NCBI GenBank assembly: GCA_965227835.1 | Contig: OZ245768.1 | Coordinates: forward strand, 420,001 to 452,000 | Direction of reading: 5' to 3' | Length of the DNA stretch: 32,000 nucleotides | From: Candidatus Saccharimonadota bacterium | Lineage (GTDB): Bacteria > Patescibacteriota > Gracilibacteria > BD1-5 > UBA6164 | In this document: piece by piece, positions 20,694 to 26,884 of the stretch | Position numbering within the stretch: position 1 is the first letter of the stretch | Layout: every line of letters begins with the position of its first letter | The notes under the pieces: generated by a model | Told to the model about the DNA's origin: nothing | Seen by the model: the letters and a program-made list of their open reading frames with translations, nothing else | The model's database searches: none | Program-made: the position numbers and the translations under genes

Positions 20694-20701
20694 TATTTTT
20701 T
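20694..20701. repeat. 8-bp target-site duplication TATTTTTT (left)
   Basis: The identical octamer directly abuts the other IS end at 21789-21796. Confidence 0.7.
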
Positions 20702-21788
20702 GGGCTAATACCAAAAATGTGTGCTATTTTTGCTTAAGATTTCTATTATAAATCCAAAGAGATATGAAAGAAATAATCCTATGTTTTTTTAATCATCTGT
20801 GAGAATAAATATGATTAGATAAAACTCCATTATATCATTCTAAATCATTAGAACTTCTTTTGATATTTTTATCTTTAATATAATGAAACATATATGGAAG
20901 AGCATTTTTTATGTGTTTTTTCGCCTGTCTGAGTCTTCGATGAGTATACCAAGTTCTTATTCAATTTGAACTTTTCTCTTTTAAAAAATCAAAGTATTTT
21001 CTCTCCCAACTCTGGAAATATTCAGTAAAAATTTTCTCATTTTCAAAGTTTTTAAAATTCATTATTTTCTGTAAATCTTTTCAACAATCACTTTGAGGTT
21101 TTTTAGATATATAATTTGTTATTTGTCTGTGAATATGTGTTAAACATCTCTGAAATTTTGCATTAGGATATATTTCTCCTATTGCTTTTTTTATTTGTTT
21201 GCTTCAATCTACAGTAAAACTCAAAATATTATATTTAAATTCATATTTAAGAATTCTTAAGTCTTCTAGTATATCCTCATATCTTTCTCAATTATAAAAA
21301 CCAAAACGAATAACTTTTTTTTGTATATATTCATAGTAAATTATAAGACATATATTTTTTGAAATCCATATCCCATCTATCATTACATAACTTATATTTT
21401 TAAACACAAGATCTATTTGAAATATTTTGTTTGAATCAAGATGACTTTGAATATTTTTAAGTATATCTTTTTTGTTTTTTAATTTCTGTTTTCAAAGTTG
21501 TCTACATGAATATCATTCTTCAATCCAATCTTGAAATATTTTTTCTCAATATATTCTTGGGGTTTTTCTTGTTGAGATAACGAAACAAAAATTACATTTT
21601 TTACATTTATATTTTTGTTTTCACTGACTATTCTTTCAGTTCTTTTTTATATAAATACAACGACATTTGGGACAGTTTTTTTTGCATAATAAAATTTTAT
21701 TTTTTAAACTACATAAATATATCTTATTTCTTCCTTATTTAATGCAAAAAATCTATACCTTTTTAGCACACATTTTTGGTATTAGCCC
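20702..21788 (-). mobile_element. insertion sequence (1087 bp) with perfect 25-bp terminal inverted repeats
   Basis: GGGCTAATACCAAAAATGTGTGCTA at 20702-20726 is the exact reverse complement of 21764-21788. Carries a single DDE transposase gene and is flanked by the 8-bp direct repeat TATTTTTT. Confidence 0.9.
20724..21687 (-). CDS. DDE transposase with N-terminal CxxC...CxxC zinc ribbon (IS256/Mutator-like core; family uncertain); start displaced by one frame at an A8 run
   Basis: 321-codon frame begins CKKNCPKCRCIYIKKNGKNSQGKQKYKCKKCNFCF. Candidate catalytic residues: YVMIDGIW, FTVDGSKQIKKAIGEIYPNAKFQRCLTHIHRQI, SSNDLEGYNG. Many in-frame TGA. Stop TAG lies inside the left IR. The only ATG (21685-21687) is one frame off, across the A8 run (T8 at 21676-21683). 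Confidence 0.65.
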
Positions 21789-21796
21789 TATTTTTT
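21789..21796. repeat. 8-bp target-site duplication TATTTTTT (right)
   Basis: Matches 20694-20701. Confidence 0.7.
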
Positions 21797-21846: not shown

Positions 21847-24800
21847 CTATTTTGTGAAAAGGGGAGGAGGTGATATCTGCACTTCAGGATTATATTTTAT
21901 TACTACAGGATATTGTGATTCTTCTTCACTAGATCCAAAATTATTTTCTTCAATTCATCTTCTTAAATAATTTAAATCATATTTTTGTGCCTCATCAAGA
22001 GTACAATCAAAACTATTTTCACTATATTTATAAAATGGACAAACAGGAGGATTTTTTCTAGATCATCATATCGTATTTTCAGAGAATAGTGATCAATGTA
22101 TATATAGTTGATTTTTTAGTACTTCATATGTTCAACCATTGCTTGGAGAAATTTCTCACCATATATCATTATAACTTATAGCTGATTTATCTGCATAAAG
22201 TGCTGCTCCTATTTTTCTCACTTCAGGATCTATATATATATTTCATCAATTATTATTATCGTCTTTTAATACTATAATTCATCAAATAGTTAAATTTCAG
22301 GTTATATATGCATTTGCTCATAGTATTACTATAGTTTTTTCTCAACAGTTACTACAAGAATTTATTGTATGAATTTTTGAATTTGCATTTCTATAATCAT
22401 AATATATTACTTTTCAATTAATCAAACTTGTTCATGTAGGGCTTCAAGATACATTTTTTATTACTTCAAAAGCATTTTTTCTTATATTTCATCTTAGTTC
22501 TCACTTATCTATATCTCAAGCTATATTTTTTATATCTTGTTCTTGATTTTCTACCAAATCTTTTTGCTTTGATTCATCTATATTAGTAAGACCATATATT
22601 TTTATAGTATTTGAATTTTGTCCTTGATTTCATCATATTGTTCAAGCTTTATAGATTACAGTTTTATTTGTATCTATTACATATTCTAAATAAGCATTTA
22701 CAACTATATCTTTTGCTTGATCTATAAATCAATCTTTATCTGGATCTAAAGTGAAAAGGGTATCAAAATTCATCTCAGATGTTTTAAATTCAGAGGAATT
22801 ATTATAAAAGACTTTTTTTCATCATTTATTAAATGTGTATTCTGTTCAACTATCTATACTTCAAGTTCAATTAAAGTTTTCATAGTTAGTATCTGTTCAA
22901 GTTTGTTCTAAAGATATTTTATTAATACTGGTTGTTTTACTAGTTGTTTTTATAACTTGTACACTTCAAGTTTGGGTTACTCATTCTATAAATCAGTTAT
23001 CTTTTTGATTTCATCTAAATTCTATTTCATATGCAGGAGAAAAATTAAATTTTATGGGGTTCTCTATTAAAGGTTTATTATATATATCTCATATATTTCA
23101 ATTTACATCTAAAAATATTTGATTTATTGTGAAATTATTTCAATTTATAGTTGGAGCATAAACTTTGAAGTTTAAAGGATATTGTCAGTCTGATGATTCA
23201 AAATTGTTAAATTCTTTGTCTTTATTATCTCATAAGCTAAATAAATTACTATAGATATTAGAACTTCAAGTATTTGCAAGAATAGCATTACCTAAATTAT
23301 TATATTGATTTAAATAGAGAGAATTAGATGTATTAAACTTTAAATCAATAGTTCTTGATATTCAGGAAGCAGTTACTATTTGGTTTCAATAATTATCTTC
23401 TAAAGATGTTCATAACTCATAAGGAATTCAATCTGCTATTTTTCATACAGTTAAAATATTTGATGTTATTGTGCTTGCTATATTTTCTGTATTTGCATAA
23501 ACATTATAATTGTATGTTGCTACATTGTTTCAACTACTACAATTTCAGGCTTCATCACAGATTTTATCTATGGTTAGGGTGTATTGCCTAGAACCGTCTG
23601 TTTCTCTGTCTCTATCTACATCTTGCATATTTAAGTCTTCACTAAAACTCCAAGAATTTACTGTTCCTGTGCTTGAAGAGTTTTTATCATTATAATTTTC
23701 AAAACTATAATCTATTGATACAATAGGAGATCATCAGTTTATTCAAACTTCAAAACTTACATTTTCACTACTATTTGCTAAAATATTTGAATCATCAGTA
23801 TGAGATAAATTTTTTATGTCATCTATCGTTGGAGCTGTAGTATCAATATTGGTTATCACATAAGAAACACTTGTCTCATTTCAGGCATTATCTTTTACGG
23901 TTATACTTGAACTAGTATTTTCTGTAAAAGTTTTAGAGTATGTATTTCAACTTATAGACCATCAACTGATATTATACATATCGCATCAACTTCATCATTC
24001 ATCACTACAAGTTATACTTACAGTTACTCATGAATTAGTCCAAATATCTGGAGAATAAGAAACATCTCATGAAGGTAATATTTTATCAATATTATCTACA
24101 TCATAAGTGGCAGTCGTTTCATTTCAAACATTGTCTATTAAAGTTATTGTTCAAGTAGTATTTTCTGTAAAAGTTTTAGAGTATATATTTCCACTTATAG
24201 TCCATCAAGTATTAGTATATGTCATATCACATCAACTTCATCAAGTATCACTACAAGTTATATTTACCGTTACTCATGAATTAGTCCAAATATCTGGAGA
24301 ATAAGAAGTAGACCATGTGGGACCTGTGATATCAATATTGGCTACACTATAGCTAGCAGTTCAAATATTTCAGGCAACATCTTCTACAGTTATACTTGAA
24401 ATAGTATTTTCTGTAAAAGTTTTAGAGTATATATTTCCACTTATAGTCCATCAAGTATTAGTATATGTCATATCACATCAACTTCATCAAGTATCACTAC
24501 AAGTTATATTTACCGTTACTCATGAATTAGTCCAAATATCTGGAGAATAAGAAGTAGATCATGAAGGATTTTCTCAATCCCAATATAAACAATACATGGT
24601 TCAGCTTTCAGCTACATCATCTTCATTATCTCAATGGGCTTCTGTTGTACTAGAATCATTGTTTTTTGCCACAGCACCTTTTGTTGCATCATCTCAATCT
24701 CAATCACCATCTCATGGACATATAGTTCATTTGTTTGGTCAAGTAGGACTTTCTCCTTGATTGCTTAATTCAGCTCCTCCAGGATTAGAATACGAAACTG

Positions 24801-24888
24801 CATGATTACCATACCAATTTCAAAAAGTTTGATTTGATGAAAACCAAATAAAAATTGATAAAATTATGAAAAATATTTGTTTTCTCAT
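21847..24888 (-). CDS. large secreted/surface protein with three tandem ~82-aa Ig-like repeats
   Basis: 1014 codons (length divisible by 3; N-terminus checked codon by codon). Signal peptide MRKQIFFIILSIFIWFSSNQTFG. Acidic GDGDGDGDD linker. Repeats SYSPDIWTNSGVTVNITCSDTGGSGCDMTYTNTGWTISGNIYSKTFTENT. C-terminal region rich in Asn/Gly/Thr. Stop TAG at 21847-21849. Confidence 0.8.
23815..24557. repeat. three tandem 246-bp coding repeats inside the surface-protein gene
   Basis: 24158-24311 and 24404-24557 are identical by eye over ~154 nt. The third unit (about 23815-24065) is clearly more diverged. Confidence 0.85.
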
Positions 24889-24916
24889 TTTTGTTTTTGT
24901 TTTTGTTTTTGTTTTT
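24888..24916. repeat. hexanucleotide microsatellite (TTTTTG)4-5 abutting the surface-protein start codon
   Basis: G at 24893, 24899, 24905 and 24911. On the coding strand this reads AAAAAC x4 and then AAAAATG. Confidence 0.9.
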
Positions 24917-24950
24917 ATATAAAATACATATATATTTTCTCATAATTTAC

Positions 24951-24990
24951 AAAAAAAAGCAAAATATTTACTCTTTATTTTGCTTTTTTT
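24951..24990. terminator. bidirectional terminator between the 631-aa gene and the surface-protein promoter
   Basis: A8-GCAAAATA-loop-TATTTTGC-T7. The T-run overlaps the stop codon of the upstream gene. Confidence 0.75.
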
Positions 24991-26884
24991 AGAGTTTCCA
25001 GTTCATTCAGATAGAAATACTATCATTTTGATTTATTCAGTTATCTGTCCTTTCAATTCAAGCACTTACAGAAAGTGTATCAAATATATTTCATGTCATT
25101 CCTATTTCCCTTGTTATTTCATTTAATAAAAAAGGATTATCTGAATTATCCAAATTTTCATATGAAAACGATATCTGTCCTTTTTGATTTCATAAATTAG
25201 CTTCAAATCAGGTTTTTTCGTATCATAATCATTTTTCACCACTTATGTTACTAGAAGCTCTCATGTTTCAATCATCATATGTCAAACCTAAATCAATAGA
25301 TTTTTTTTCAAATTCTCTTGTTCAACCATCATACCCAACTCTAATATTTTTTCGTGAAATATCAGCTCAATATCATAGATTTATATTTCAAACTAGATTT
25401 TGTGAAATAGATTGTTCCAAATTTAATGAGGCTCCATAATTTAAAGTATGGTCATTTGAATTATTATTTTTTTCAGATTCAGTTCGTTGAAATTGATGTA
25501 CTGCTCATAATCATATATTTGTATTTCAATTATCAAATAGTTGATTATAATATTTAAAATCAAATCAAATATTATTAAATTCTCTTGTTTTTCAATTTTC
25601 CCACTCAAAATAATTTTTTGAAAGTTTTAATCAAACTCAGTAAGTTCAAAATGTATCATTACTAACCGTTTTTTCTAAATATGTTCAATAAGAATCATAA
25701 TTTGCATAGTCTAAACTATTTGTTCTATTAAAAAAAACTCATGTTTTCATTCCACTATTTGCATAACTTAAATCAATACTTTTTGAGCTTTTTGTATCAA
25801 GTTCTCAATCTATGTTAAATCAATGCTTATATTCTAATCATTCTCTGCTTAGTTCCCTAGAATATTCTAGACTATCTCCTGTATTAATTGAAGATGTAGT
25901 TGATTCAAATAACTCTTCTAAATCAGTCTGAATAAAACCCAATAATTTTCATCTAGCATCTCAAACTTCTTCTCTAATTTTAATTGATCATTTTTCTGCT
26001 AGATATCTAGCTTTTAATTCTTTGGGATCACTTGATTCGTAATAGTTTCAATAATCTATAAAAAAAAATTTACCATCCTGATTTCTTCACCGAGTTATTG
26101 AATGATTTCCTCAAGAAGTTGTACTTATAATTCAAGTATTAAATCAAACAGATTCCAAAAACTTAGCTACTTCGCTATGATGATGTCTACATACTCCTGC
26201 TACTCAAAAGTTTATATATGCGTCCCACATATCTTGCGATGAAACATCTCAAGAGTTACCCATTTGATCACTATCATATCAAACATTACCCATATATATA
26301 CTCATAAACATAGCTAGTTCTATTTTATTTTGTTCTGATTGATTTTCATAATTTTCTCTTAATATTTCAAGTGGACTTCTATCTGTTTGCCCAGCTTCAA
26401 ATAAAGAATTTAGAAAATTTAGTTGTTCATCAAAGAATCTGTTATTTTCAGATAATTTTTCCTGCCCTCCTTCTACACCACATATAAAATCTAAACTATC
26501 AGTTGTTCTTTCAATATAACAAGTTCTATTTGATTGAGAATTTTCATCATATAATTTATAAAAAACTCTAATAGCATCTTGTATACTTCAATCTCACTCT
26601 GAAGAATTATCATATCTATCTATTAAAACATCTTCTTTTTGGGCAGTTGAGCTTCTATTTACTAGATTTATATTAATGTATATATCATTTCTTGTATTTT
26701 CTACTAAATTATTAACATCTCTATATGTTTCTAAATTTAAAGACTCCAAATCTCATTTTGTATTCTCTACCAATTCTTGAGAATCTTCTGATTCAATATA
26801 TTCTTCTATTCCATTTGTATTAAATCATTGTGTTTCATTTGTATTTTGATTTATATTTTCTGTTATATTATTTTCTCTTTCCAT
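24989..26884 (-). CDS. transglutaminase-like Cys-His-Asp domain protein with beta-strand-rich C-terminal half
   Basis: 632 codons. No signal peptide (MERENNITENINQNTNE). Core GVAGVCRHHHSEVAKFLESVGFNTGIISTTSGGNHSITRGRNQDGKFFFIDYG. C-terminus shows alternating-hydrophobic segments (IRVGYDG, LGLTYDD, ISFSYEN, LSVSAGIE, ISIGMNWKL). Confidence 0.7.

What the first reader, a model, noticed from the sequence alone, without database searches (positions are those of the whole stretch)
20694..21796. Apparently recent IS insertion whose transposase is written in code 25 and needs frame correction at an A8 run
The element has perfect 25-bp terminal inverted repeats (20702-20726 / 21764-21788) and a perfect 8-bp target duplication TATTTTTT, which argue for recent transposition. 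The transposase frame contains many TGA codons at plausible Gly positions (TVD-G-SK, NDLE-G-YN), so the element is adapted to the recoded host and could not be expressed in a standard-code bacterium. The only ATG (21685-21687) is out of frame by one nucleotide with the 321-codon zinc-ribbon/DDE frame. The two frames are separated by an A8 homopolymer (T8 at 21676-21683). Loss of one A by transcriptional slippage, or a +1 ribosomal shift, would give MQK(K)NCPKC or MQKKCPKC. This could be programmed control of transposase level, a very recent inactivating indel, or a homopolymer sequencing error.
Basis: partly seen in the sequence, partly recalled or inferred. Interest (0 to 1): 0.6.

Follow-up and report, generated by a model that had tools for sequence, protein, structure and literature searches.

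The report
IS256-type element with slippery start
This is a recently inserted 1,087-bp jumping gene of the IS256 family in a bacterium that reads TGA as glycine, and the one-base frame break at a run of eight A's just after its start codon is kept in about 30 diverged relatives, so it is most likely a built-in brake on transposase production and not an error.

Summary
The element spans window 20702-21788 and has perfect 25-bp inverted repeats and a perfect 8-bp target duplication. Its transposase frame on the minus strand holds 11 in-frame TGA codons, and its ATG sits one base out of frame across an A8 run.

The element belongs to the IS256/Mutator family, nearest the IS1249 and "Zn-binding variant" groups. 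It is not IS1 or IS1595.

The frame break is neither an assembly error nor fresh decay:
- A second copy in the same genome, differing at 3 bases, also has A8.
- Of 33 distinct relatives that keep an A-run beside an ATG (21-73% protein identity; Gracilibacteria, Peregrinibacteria, Elusimicrobiota, Bacteroidota), 29 place the ATG exactly 13 nt before the first zinc-ribbon Cys codon.
- Four relatives need the opposite shift, and none is in frame.
- In several relatives an in-frame stop lies two codons before that Cys, so no in-frame start is possible.

My best reading is programmed recoding just after the start. The likeliest route is loss of one A by RNA-polymerase slippage, and a +1 ribosomal shift is the main rival.

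The scan has already noted this same layout six times on other DNA. A 2016 review lists frameshift use only for IS1, IS3, IS5 and IS630.

The parts
20694..20701 (.). Target-site duplication, copy 1 (TATTTTTT on +; AAAAAATA in transposase sense)
20702..20726 (-). Right terminal inverted repeat at the transposase 3' end, 25 bp, outer end GGG. The TAG stop of the transposase (20724-20726) lies inside it.
20727..21674 (-). Transposase frame from the first zinc-ribbon Cys to the last codon (316 codons, 11 TGA=Gly). Zn ribbon CxxC...CxxC at 21594-21674. Candidate catalytic D 21375-21377, D 21207-21209, E 20976-20978. CxxH motif 21135-21146.
21676..21683 (-). A8 slippery run (T8 on +) between the ATG and the Zn-ribbon frame. 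Loss of one A in the RNA, or a +1 shift, gives MQKNCPKC...
21685..21687 (-). Start codon ATG, 13 nt upstream of the first Cys codon and out of frame by +1. It sits where the family profiles begin (profile position 1-2).
21628..21687 (-). Dead-end zero-frame ORF read without a shift (MQKKLSQMSLYLYKKELKE*). Its length is not conserved in relatives (6-31 codons).
21716..21721 (-). Possible -10 box TATATT, at the position where close relatives have TGnTATAAT about 30-35 nt before the ATG. Inferred only.
   Evidence: the consensus promoter scan was uninformative
21764..21788 (-). Left terminal inverted repeat at the transposase 5' end, 25 bp
21789..21796 (.). Target-site duplication, copy 2 (TATTTTTT)
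21405..21407 (-). First in-frame canonical start (GTG) inside the transposase frame. It would give only a 227-aa product without the Zn ribbon.

Best explanation
This is a 1,087-bp insertion sequence of the IS256 (Mutator-type DDE) family, nearest the IS1249 and 'Zn-binding variant' groups. It inserted recently into the intergenic region between a large surface-protein gene and ndk, in a code-25 (TGA=Gly) Gracilibacteria-type genome. Translation starts at the ATG at 21685-21687. As encoded, that frame dies after 19 codons. The transposase (N-terminal zinc ribbon plus DDE core) is made only from the minority of messages in which RNA polymerase has slipped on the A8 tract and left out one A (or added two). 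That puts the ATG in frame and gives MQKNCPKC... (or MQKKKNCPKC...). The tract therefore works as a conserved throttle that keeps transposase, and so transposition, low. Shown here: the anatomy, the family, the code-25 adaptation, and the deep conservation of the out-of-frame layout. Inferred: that the shift occurs during transcription rather than on the ribosome, and that its purpose is down-regulation.
For: - Anatomy.
- Family: Pfam Transposase_mut scores 41.6 bits against a cut-off of 21. NCBIfam IS1249 gives 7.9e-44 and IS256_Zn_var gives 2.9e-38, both over the full length, and both profiles begin exactly at the position of the out-of-frame ATG.
- Second copy: G000 636235-637321 differs at 3 sites (1 non-synonymous, 2 synonymous) and also has A8.
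- Conservation: 29 of 33 distinct relatives with an A-run beside an ATG have ATG-to-Cys = 13 nt, 4 need the other shift, and 0 are in frame. Most have intact ORFs of 298-331 codons.
- The 13-nt spacing is kept through at least 12 different spellings: ATG-C-A8-C, ATG-AT-A8, ATG-AG-A8, ATG-AC-A8, ATG-GC-A8, ATG-GT-A8, ATG-TC-A8, ATG-C-A9, ATG-G-A9, ATG-A10, ATG-NNN-A7. So the frame offset is what is conserved, and not the phase of the run. That fits a phase-independent mechanism.
- In L046, L055, L079 and L080 an in-frame stop lies two codons before the first Cys, so no in-frame start exists.
- On a maximum-likelihood tree the 13-nt state lies on both sides of the deepest split. In-frame and other states are scattered exceptions nested inside it.
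- A finished isolate record, an Emticicia oligotrophica DSM 17448 plasmid, shows ATG...A8...TGC with 22 nt (mod 3 = 1).
- Public gene calls never start M-x-K-(K/N)-C.
- A-runs longer than 7 are a recognised motif of programmed transcriptional realignment (PMC3711429; PMC5009743).
- The host genome has 912 A/T8 runs, 110 A/T9 runs and only 5 of 10 or more. A8 is thus the longest run commonly tolerated, which fits low-level slippage at that length.
- The host does not use Shine-Dalgarno sites, so an ATG without one is normal here.
Against: - The transcript heterogeneity that defines slippage is therefore unobserved.
- A7-A8 is shorter than the 9-nt runs where slippage is efficient in E. coli and Thermus.
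- 602 A8 runs lie in the sense strand of long ORFs of this host, so slippage at A8 cannot be frequent.
- Every run of 7 or more A's also contains a zero-frame AAA followed by A, so a +1 tRNA-Lys slip is sterically possible in all variants and sequence alone cannot exclude it.
- Relatives that need the opposite shift carry A_AAA_AAG or A_AAA_AAT in phase (L048, L052, L056). These look like ribosomal -1 sites, which shows the family can use ribosomal shifting.
- No upstream stimulatory hairpin is consistently present.
Confidence: 0.6

Rival explanations
1. The recoding is programmed but happens on the ribosome. Peptidyl-tRNA-Lys slips +1 on AAA-A, or the ribosome slides on the poly-A, at codons 3-4 during very early elongation. 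The product would be the same, MQKNCPKC...
For: All 13-nt variants contain a zero-frame AAA followed by A. Sister lineages carry in-phase A_AAA_AAG or A_AAA_AAT heptamers typical of ribosomal -1 shifting, so ribosomal recoding at this position occurs in the family. A7 runs, as in the Bacteroidota members, are short for polymerase slippage.
Against: No slow or stop codon follows in the zero frame: the next codon is CTG or ATG. No conserved downstream or upstream stimulator was found. The phase of the run relative to the ATG varies freely (offsets 3, 4, 5, 6), whereas ribosomal sites usually keep phase. Selection appears to favour long runs (mode A8, up to A10).
Confidence: 0.22
2. A DNA-level phase switch: replication slippage toggles A8 (off) and A7 (on) in a subpopulation, and only 'on' copies express transposase.
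For: Homopolymers of this length are mutable at replication (PMC3711429). Occasional run-length variants occur among close relatives, such as A9C in L043 and L065 and A9 in the decayed L038.
Against: None of 33 distinct relatives, and neither copy in this genome, is in the 'on' frame. Different spellings preserve the off-frame spacing across deep branches. A reversible switch should leave some 'on' alleles in assemblies.
Confidence: 0.08
3. No recoding occurs. The protein starts at a non-canonical in-frame codon (ATT or ATA upstream), or at the internal GTG, which would give a truncated protein. Or the copy is simply dead, or the A8 is an assembly error.
For: In-frame ATA and ATT codons exist upstream in this copy. 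GTG at 21405-21407 opens a 227-aa ORF. A few relatives (L047/L072, L102) do have in-frame ATG or GTG starts upstream.
Against: In-frame upstream codons are not conserved and are impossible in L046, L055, L079 and L080. The out-of-frame ATG is conserved instead. The family profiles start at that ATG position. The ORFs downstream stay intact across 21-73% identity. Two copies and dozens of independent assemblies agree on the frame. A GTG-started product would lack the Zn ribbon.
Confidence: 0.07

Closest known systems
IS256 family, IS1249 group / NCBIfam 'IS256 family transposase, variant Zn-binding type' (NF048019)
   Same: Mutator-type DDE transposase with a CxxH motif, an N-terminal four-Cys zinc ribbon, about 25-bp inverted repeats ending in GG, an 8-bp target duplication and a single gene.
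   Different: It scores below both curated cut-offs (150 against 300 bits; 132 against 150 bits). At 1,087 bp it is shorter than the usual 1.2-1.5 kb (my knowledge of ISfinder ranges). It is written in code 25. It has a start-proximal slippery run that I did not find described for IS256.
Programmed transcriptional realignment in IS630 and IS5 transposases, Thermus dnaX and Roseiflexus IS630 (PMC5009743, PMC3711429)
   Same: A homopolymer of 8 or more A's, conserved among diverged homologues, is needed to reach the functional frame, and the effect is limited transposase output.
   Different: In those cases the shift joins two substantial ORFs (a DNA-binding domain plus a catalytic domain), and the unshifted product is often a regulator. 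Here the tract lies at codons 2-4, the unshifted product is a non-conserved 6-31-aa peptide, and the whole protein, including its first Cys, depends on the shift.
IS1 (A6C) and IS3 (A6G) -1 ribosomal frameshifting
   Same: An A-rich slippery site controls the transposase level. A zinc-ribbon N-terminus like InsA gives a weak Pfam and NCBIfam hit. Some relatives (L048, L052, L056) carry A_AAA_AAG or A_AAA_AAT in phase.
   Different: This element needs the opposite correction (+1, or loss of one nt). There is no InsA-type upstream ORF. The IS1 profile scores 30 bits against a cut-off of 100.
ISMich2 group of prokaryotic Mutator-like transposases (PMC3942029)
   Same: It is in the Mutator/IS256 superfamily, with a frameshift conserved across the group and read as programmed.
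   Different: ISMich2 has two ORFs joined by a -1 frameshift. Here there is one ORF with a start-proximal +1 or slippage requirement.

Membership tests
IS256 family (Mutator-type DDE IS) | Transposase matches Pfam Transposase_mut (PF00872) above the gathering score | tested here: met
   41.6 bits against a cut-off of 21, E=1e-10
IS256 family (Mutator-type DDE IS) | DDE triad with a C/DxxH motif after the second D | tested here: met
   D156, E233, C177 and H180 are invariant in the 6-sequence alignment. The first D (position 100) is present in 5 of 6 sequences. Catalysis itself was not tested.
IS256 family (Mutator-type DDE IS) | Terminal inverted repeats of about 20-30 bp ending in GG, and 8-9 bp target duplication | tested here: met
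   25-bp perfect inverted repeats, outer end GGG, 8-bp duplication
IS256 family (Mutator-type DDE IS) | Length 1.2-1.5 kb (ISfinder range, from memory) | tested here: not met
   1,087 bp; relatives assemble as contigs of about 1.05-1.3 kb
IS1249 group (NCBIfam NF033544) | Score at or above the curated cut-off of 300 bits | tested here: not met
   150.3 bits, full-length alignment 19-331
IS256 Zn-binding variant (NCBIfam NF048019) | Score at or above the curated cut-off of 150 bits | tested here: not met
   131.8 bits; 108.8 bits in the genome search, where TGA is read through. A different element in the same genome at 386.9 kb does pass, with 236.8 bits.
Programmed transcriptional realignment | Homopolymer of 8 or more A/T at the frame transition | tested here: met
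   A8 here; A7-A10 in relatives; criterion from PMC3711429
Programmed transcriptional realignment | The frame break and motif are conserved among diverged, otherwise intact homologues | tested here: met
   29 of 33 relatives have the 13-nt spacing and 0 are in frame; the state lies on both sides of the deepest split
Programmed transcriptional realignment | Heterogeneous mRNA (A7/A9/A10) from an A8 template | not testable with these tools
IS1 family | IS1 transposase profile above the cut-off; insA/insB joined by a -1 shift at A6C | tested here: not met
   NF033558 scores 30.2 bits against 100, N-terminal part only. The shift needed here is +1 and there is no insA ORF.
IS1595 family | DDE_Tnp_IS1595 catalytic domain | tested here: not met
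   Only the shared N-terminal Zn domain NF050000 matches (29.8 bits); no IS1595 DDE hit

The most novel reading that the evidence does not exclude
The shift is made by the ribosome and not by the polymerase. It would be a +1 slip or slide on a lysine poly-A tract within the first four codons, needing no hungry codon or RNA stimulator and exploiting the instability of the very early elongation complex. That would be a start-proximal class of programmed frameshifting shared by an IS lineage across at least four phyla. Its sister lineages would have switched to in-phase A_AAA_AAG -1 sites at the same position.
Probability: 0.2. Interest if true: 0.75.

Novelty: new variant of a known kind. Interest (0 to 1): 0.5.

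Why it matters
Recoding by frameshifting or polymerase slippage is a classic brake on transposition. The 2016 review I read lists it only for IS1, IS3, IS5 and IS630. In those families it joins two sizeable ORFs.

Here a whole IS256/IS1249-like lineage, spread over Patescibacteria, Elusimicrobiota and Bacteroidota, places the slippery tract at codons 2-4. The entire protein depends on the shift, and the 'upstream ORF' is too short for frameshift-finding programs or annotation pipelines to see.

The practical consequence is systematic mis-annotation. Public gene calls start at spurious upstream or downstream codons or are truncated. These elements would be counted as pseudogenes or as Zn-ribbon-less transposases.

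For this genome it also shows an active mobile element fully adapted to code 25, since 11 of its 15 Gly codons are TGA. That confines it to hosts with this code.

The layout offers a compact natural test bed for telling polymerase slippage from early-elongation frameshifting.

Tried and rejected
- **Empty-site allele.** The two same-genus genomes keep ndk (80% and 69% identity), but synteny ends just upstream of it. In G001 a different 286-aa gene precedes ndk, so no empty site could be shown.
- **IS1 and IS1595 assignment.** Only the shared N-terminal Zn-ribbon matches; both are rejected.
- **Consensus promoter and terminator scan of the element.** It found fewer promoter-like sites than shuffles and no terminator, so it was uninformative.
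- **Stimulatory hairpin directly upstream of the A-run.** A clear AU hairpin abutting the run occurs only in a subclade (L044, L064 and L083 with z about -2 to -2.8; L045 weaker, z = -1.0). It is weak or absent here (z = +0.4) and in most others, so it is not a conserved feature.
- **In-frame alternative start.** Rejected because it is not conserved and is impossible in several relatives.
- **Literature.** Searches for IS1249, and for IS256 plus frameshift or slippage, found no description of this layout. The library does not hold subscription-only papers or ISfinder/TnPedia pages, so prior description cannot be excluded.

Full report
**1. The observation**

The window is G000:C1:420001-452000 of a single-contig genome of 1.49 Mb and 25.5% GC.

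- **Ends and duplication.** At 20702-20726 and 21764-21788 lie perfect 25-nt inverted repeats, GGGCTAATACCAAAAATGTGTGCTA. They are flanked by TATTTTTT at 20694-20701 and 21789-21796.
- **Reading frame.** On the minus strand one frame is open for 336 codons under code 25, with 11 TGA codons. Its TAG stop (20724-20726) lies inside the right repeat.
- **Frame break.** The ATG at 21685-21687 is followed by C, A8 (21676-21683), C and then TGT, the first Cys of a CxxC...CxxC zinc ribbon. ATG to TGT is 13 nt, one base out of frame.
- **Unshifted product.** Without a shift the ATG frame reads MQKKLSQMSLYLYKKELKE and stops.
- **One correction.** A second ATG, followed at once by TAG, lies at 21709-21714.

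**2. Genetic code**

Neighbouring genes need TGA as a sense codon: ndk has 4, and a 1,059-aa ORF has 83. In an alignment with relatives, 5 of the 11 transposase TGA codons sit in invariant Gly columns. Those columns read GGN in relatives that have no TGA (L040, L041). Eleven of the 15 Gly codons in this copy are TGA. The element is therefore adapted to code 25 and would be truncated in a standard-code host.

**3. Family**

- Pfam Transposase_mut is hit above its gathering score, 41.6 against 21 bits.
- NCBIfam aligns IS1249 (E=7.9e-44, 150 bits, cut-off 300) and IS256_Zn_var (E=2.9e-38, 132 bits, cut-off 150) over the full length.
- IS1 and IS1595 models match only the N-terminal zinc ribbon.
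- Both full-length profiles begin at residues 19-23 of the open frame. That is the position where the out-of-frame ATG lies.
- The DDE residues and the CxxH motif are conserved.

This is a divergent member of the IS256/Mutator family near the IS1249 and Zn-variant groups. At 1,087 bp it is shorter than usual for the family.

**4. Copies in this genome**

- A second full copy lies at G000 636235-637321. It differs at three sites (L60F plus two synonymous changes) and has the same A8.
- That copy has no target duplication: its flanks are TAATAAAT and CAAAAAAT.
- A 98-bp 5' remnant lies at 1304383-1304480.
- Three solo repeat-like sites lie at 758053, 971139 and 1223849.

Together these show recent activity plus older decay.

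**5. The insertion site**

With the element removed, about 310 bp of AT-rich spacer remains between the 3' end of the 1,059-aa gene and ndk. All are on the minus strand, as is the transposase. No real gene appears to be interrupted. No empty-site allele could be found, because synteny in the two same-genus genomes ends just upstream of ndk.

**6. The frame break is conserved**

I collected relatives from four sources: whole-genome searches, GTDB genome contigs, metagenome contigs and contigs encoding database proteins.

- **Counts.** Of 33 distinct sequences with an A-run of at least 6 beside an ATG, 29 have exactly 13 nt from ATG to the first Cys codon. Four have 11 or 14 nt and need the opposite shift. 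None is in frame.
- **Many spellings, one spacing.** The 13 nt are written as ATG-C-A8-C, ATG-AT/AG/AC/GC/GT/TC-A8, ATG-C/G-A9, ATG-A10 and ATG-ACC/AAT/GTT/CTT-A7. The offset is conserved while the letters and the phase of the run change.
- **Intact ORFs.** Downstream ORFs are mostly intact at 298-331 codons.
- **No in-frame start possible.** In L046, L055, L079 and L080 an in-frame stop lies two codons (AAA AAA) before the Cys.
- **Breadth.** The relatives are 21-73% identical to the window protein. They come from Gracilibacteria, Peregrinibacteria/Peribacteria, Elusimicrobiaceae and Bacteroidota, namely Draconibacterium, Alistipes, Bacteroidales and Prevotella.
- **Tree.** On a maximum-likelihood tree the 13-nt state is on both sides of the deepest split. 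The exceptions are nested inside it: L051 in frame, L043 with A9C, and L102 with A6GA plus an in-frame GTG.
- **A finished isolate record.** An Emticicia oligotrophica DSM 17448 plasmid has ATG...A8...TGC at 22 nt (mod 3 = 1). RefSeq starts its CDS downstream at a TTG and so loses the first half of the zinc ribbon.
- **Public gene calls.** Gene calls for close relatives start at assorted upstream or downstream codons, never at M-x-K-(K/N)-C.

This pattern rules out an assembly error or a recent inactivating indel. It also argues against a reversible DNA switch, which should leave some in-frame alleles.

**7. Mechanism**

There are two ways to restore the frame:
- RNA polymerase slips on the A8/T8 tract and yields messages with one A fewer, or two more.
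- tRNA-Lys makes a +1 slip on AAA-A.

I favour polymerase slippage, at about 0.6, for four reasons:
- Runs longer than 7 A's are the recognised motif for programmed transcriptional realignment (PMC3711429; PMC5009743).
- The phase of the run relative to the ATG is free.
- The zero-frame codon after the run (CTG or ATG) is not a slow or stop codon.
- No conserved RNA stimulator was seen.

The host genome's homopolymer spectrum falls sharply: 912 runs of 8, 110 of 9, and 5 of 10 or more. A8 is thus the longest commonly tolerated run. With 602 A8 runs in the sense strand of long ORFs, slippage at A8 must be infrequent. That is what a throttle needs.

Against certainty:
- No transcripts could be inspected.
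- A7-A8 is short for efficient slippage.
- Sister lineages that need the opposite shift carry in-phase A_AAA_AAG (L048) or A_AAA_AAT (L052, L056) heptamers, which look ribosomal.

The ATG lacks a Shine-Dalgarno site. So do the host's genes: SD-like 4-mers occur in 5% of starts against 8% in the background.

**8. Comparison with known systems**

Programmed frameshifting or realignment in IS transposases is well known. The 2016 review names IS1, IS3, IS5 and IS630. A survey of prokaryotic Mutator-like transposases reports a conserved -1 frameshift only in the two-ORF ISMich2 group.

I found no description of a start-proximal slippery tract in IS256/IS1249-type elements. The library lacks ISfinder/TnPedia and subscription journals.

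What differs here is the position. The tract is at codons 2-4, there is no functional upstream ORF, and the whole protein depends on the shift. That is also why frameshift finders and annotation pipelines miss it.

**9. Earlier notes of this scan**

Six earlier notes on other genomes describe the same layout and reach the same reading. I re-derived the conservation independently here. The present window adds three things:
- a code-25 host with heavy TGA=Gly use in the element;
- two near-identical copies that share A8;
- the host homopolymer spectrum.

**10. Verdict**

The element is a new variant of a known kind of control and not a new category. Interest is moderate, because the scan has seen it repeatedly and the mechanism is not yet shown experimentally.

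Noticed in passing
G000:C1:636235-637321 (outside the window): The second full copy of the element has no target-site duplication (flanks TAATAAAT and CAAAAAAT). This suggests a later rearrangement or adjacent deletion, or recombination with a lost copy.
   Followed up: partly
G000:C1:1304383-1304480; 758053-758077; 971139-971163; 1223849-1223873: A 98-bp 5' remnant of the element, cut exactly before the G of the ATG, and three solo inverted-repeat-like sites with 3 mismatches each. These are traces of older copies.
   Followed up: partly
G000:C1:386914-388997: A different IS256 Zn-variant element that passes the NF048019 cut-off (236.8 bits). It has an in-frame ATG (MGNKTYTKNCNKC) and no A-run. 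It carries an internal TAA and is split by about 1.2 kb that encodes a 366-aa integrase-like (IS3/IS481-like) ORF on the opposite strand, so this is a nested insertion.
   Followed up: partly
G000:C1:316733-316840 and 324031-324138: Two nearly identical short loci that encode only the zinc-ribbon N-terminus of such a transposase, with identical upstream sequence. They may be truncated elements or a repeated module.
   Followed up: no
whole genome G000: A/T homopolymer counts drop abruptly: 3,085 of length 7, 912 of 8, 110 of 9, 3 of 10 and 2 of 11. This suggests strong selection against runs of 9 or more in this 25% GC genome.
   Followed up: partly
whole genome G000: No Shine-Dalgarno signal is seen upstream of the first ATG of 726 long ORFs (5% with an SD-like 4-mer against 8% background). 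Start regions are A-rich and G-poor on both sides of the ATG.
   Followed up: partly
window 21847-25026 (minus strand): A 1,059-aa ORF with 83 TGA=Gly codons and three tandem copies of a domain of roughly 85 aa that begins SYSPDIWTNSGVTV.ITCSD.GGSGCDM. It is probably a secreted or surface protein. The element lies just downstream of it in the same orientation, so read-through transcription into the element is possible.
   Followed up: no
L042, L045, L064 (relatives); window 21716-21723: Close relatives carry an extended -10-like TGnTATAAT about 30-35 nt before the ATG. The window copy has AGaTATATT there. In a subclade (L044, L064, L083; more weakly L045) an AU hairpin ends directly at the A-run, reminiscent of hairpin-stimulated slippage, but it is not conserved.
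   Followed up: partly
L115 (Klebsiella pneumoniae plasmid NZ_CP071820.1, 118102-119040): A distant relative (25% identity) annotated as a hypothetical protein also has an ATG 13 nt before the first Cys codon, but only A5. It has an in-frame TTG start just upstream, so this may be a lineage that lost the slippery start.
   Followed up: no
L114 (Emticicia oligotrophica plasmid NC_018742.1, 19122-19985): The RefSeq 'transposase' CDS starts at a TTG inside the zinc ribbon. The ATG-A8 layout upstream is unannotated, which is an example of the systematic mis-annotation of this IS group.
   Followed up: partly
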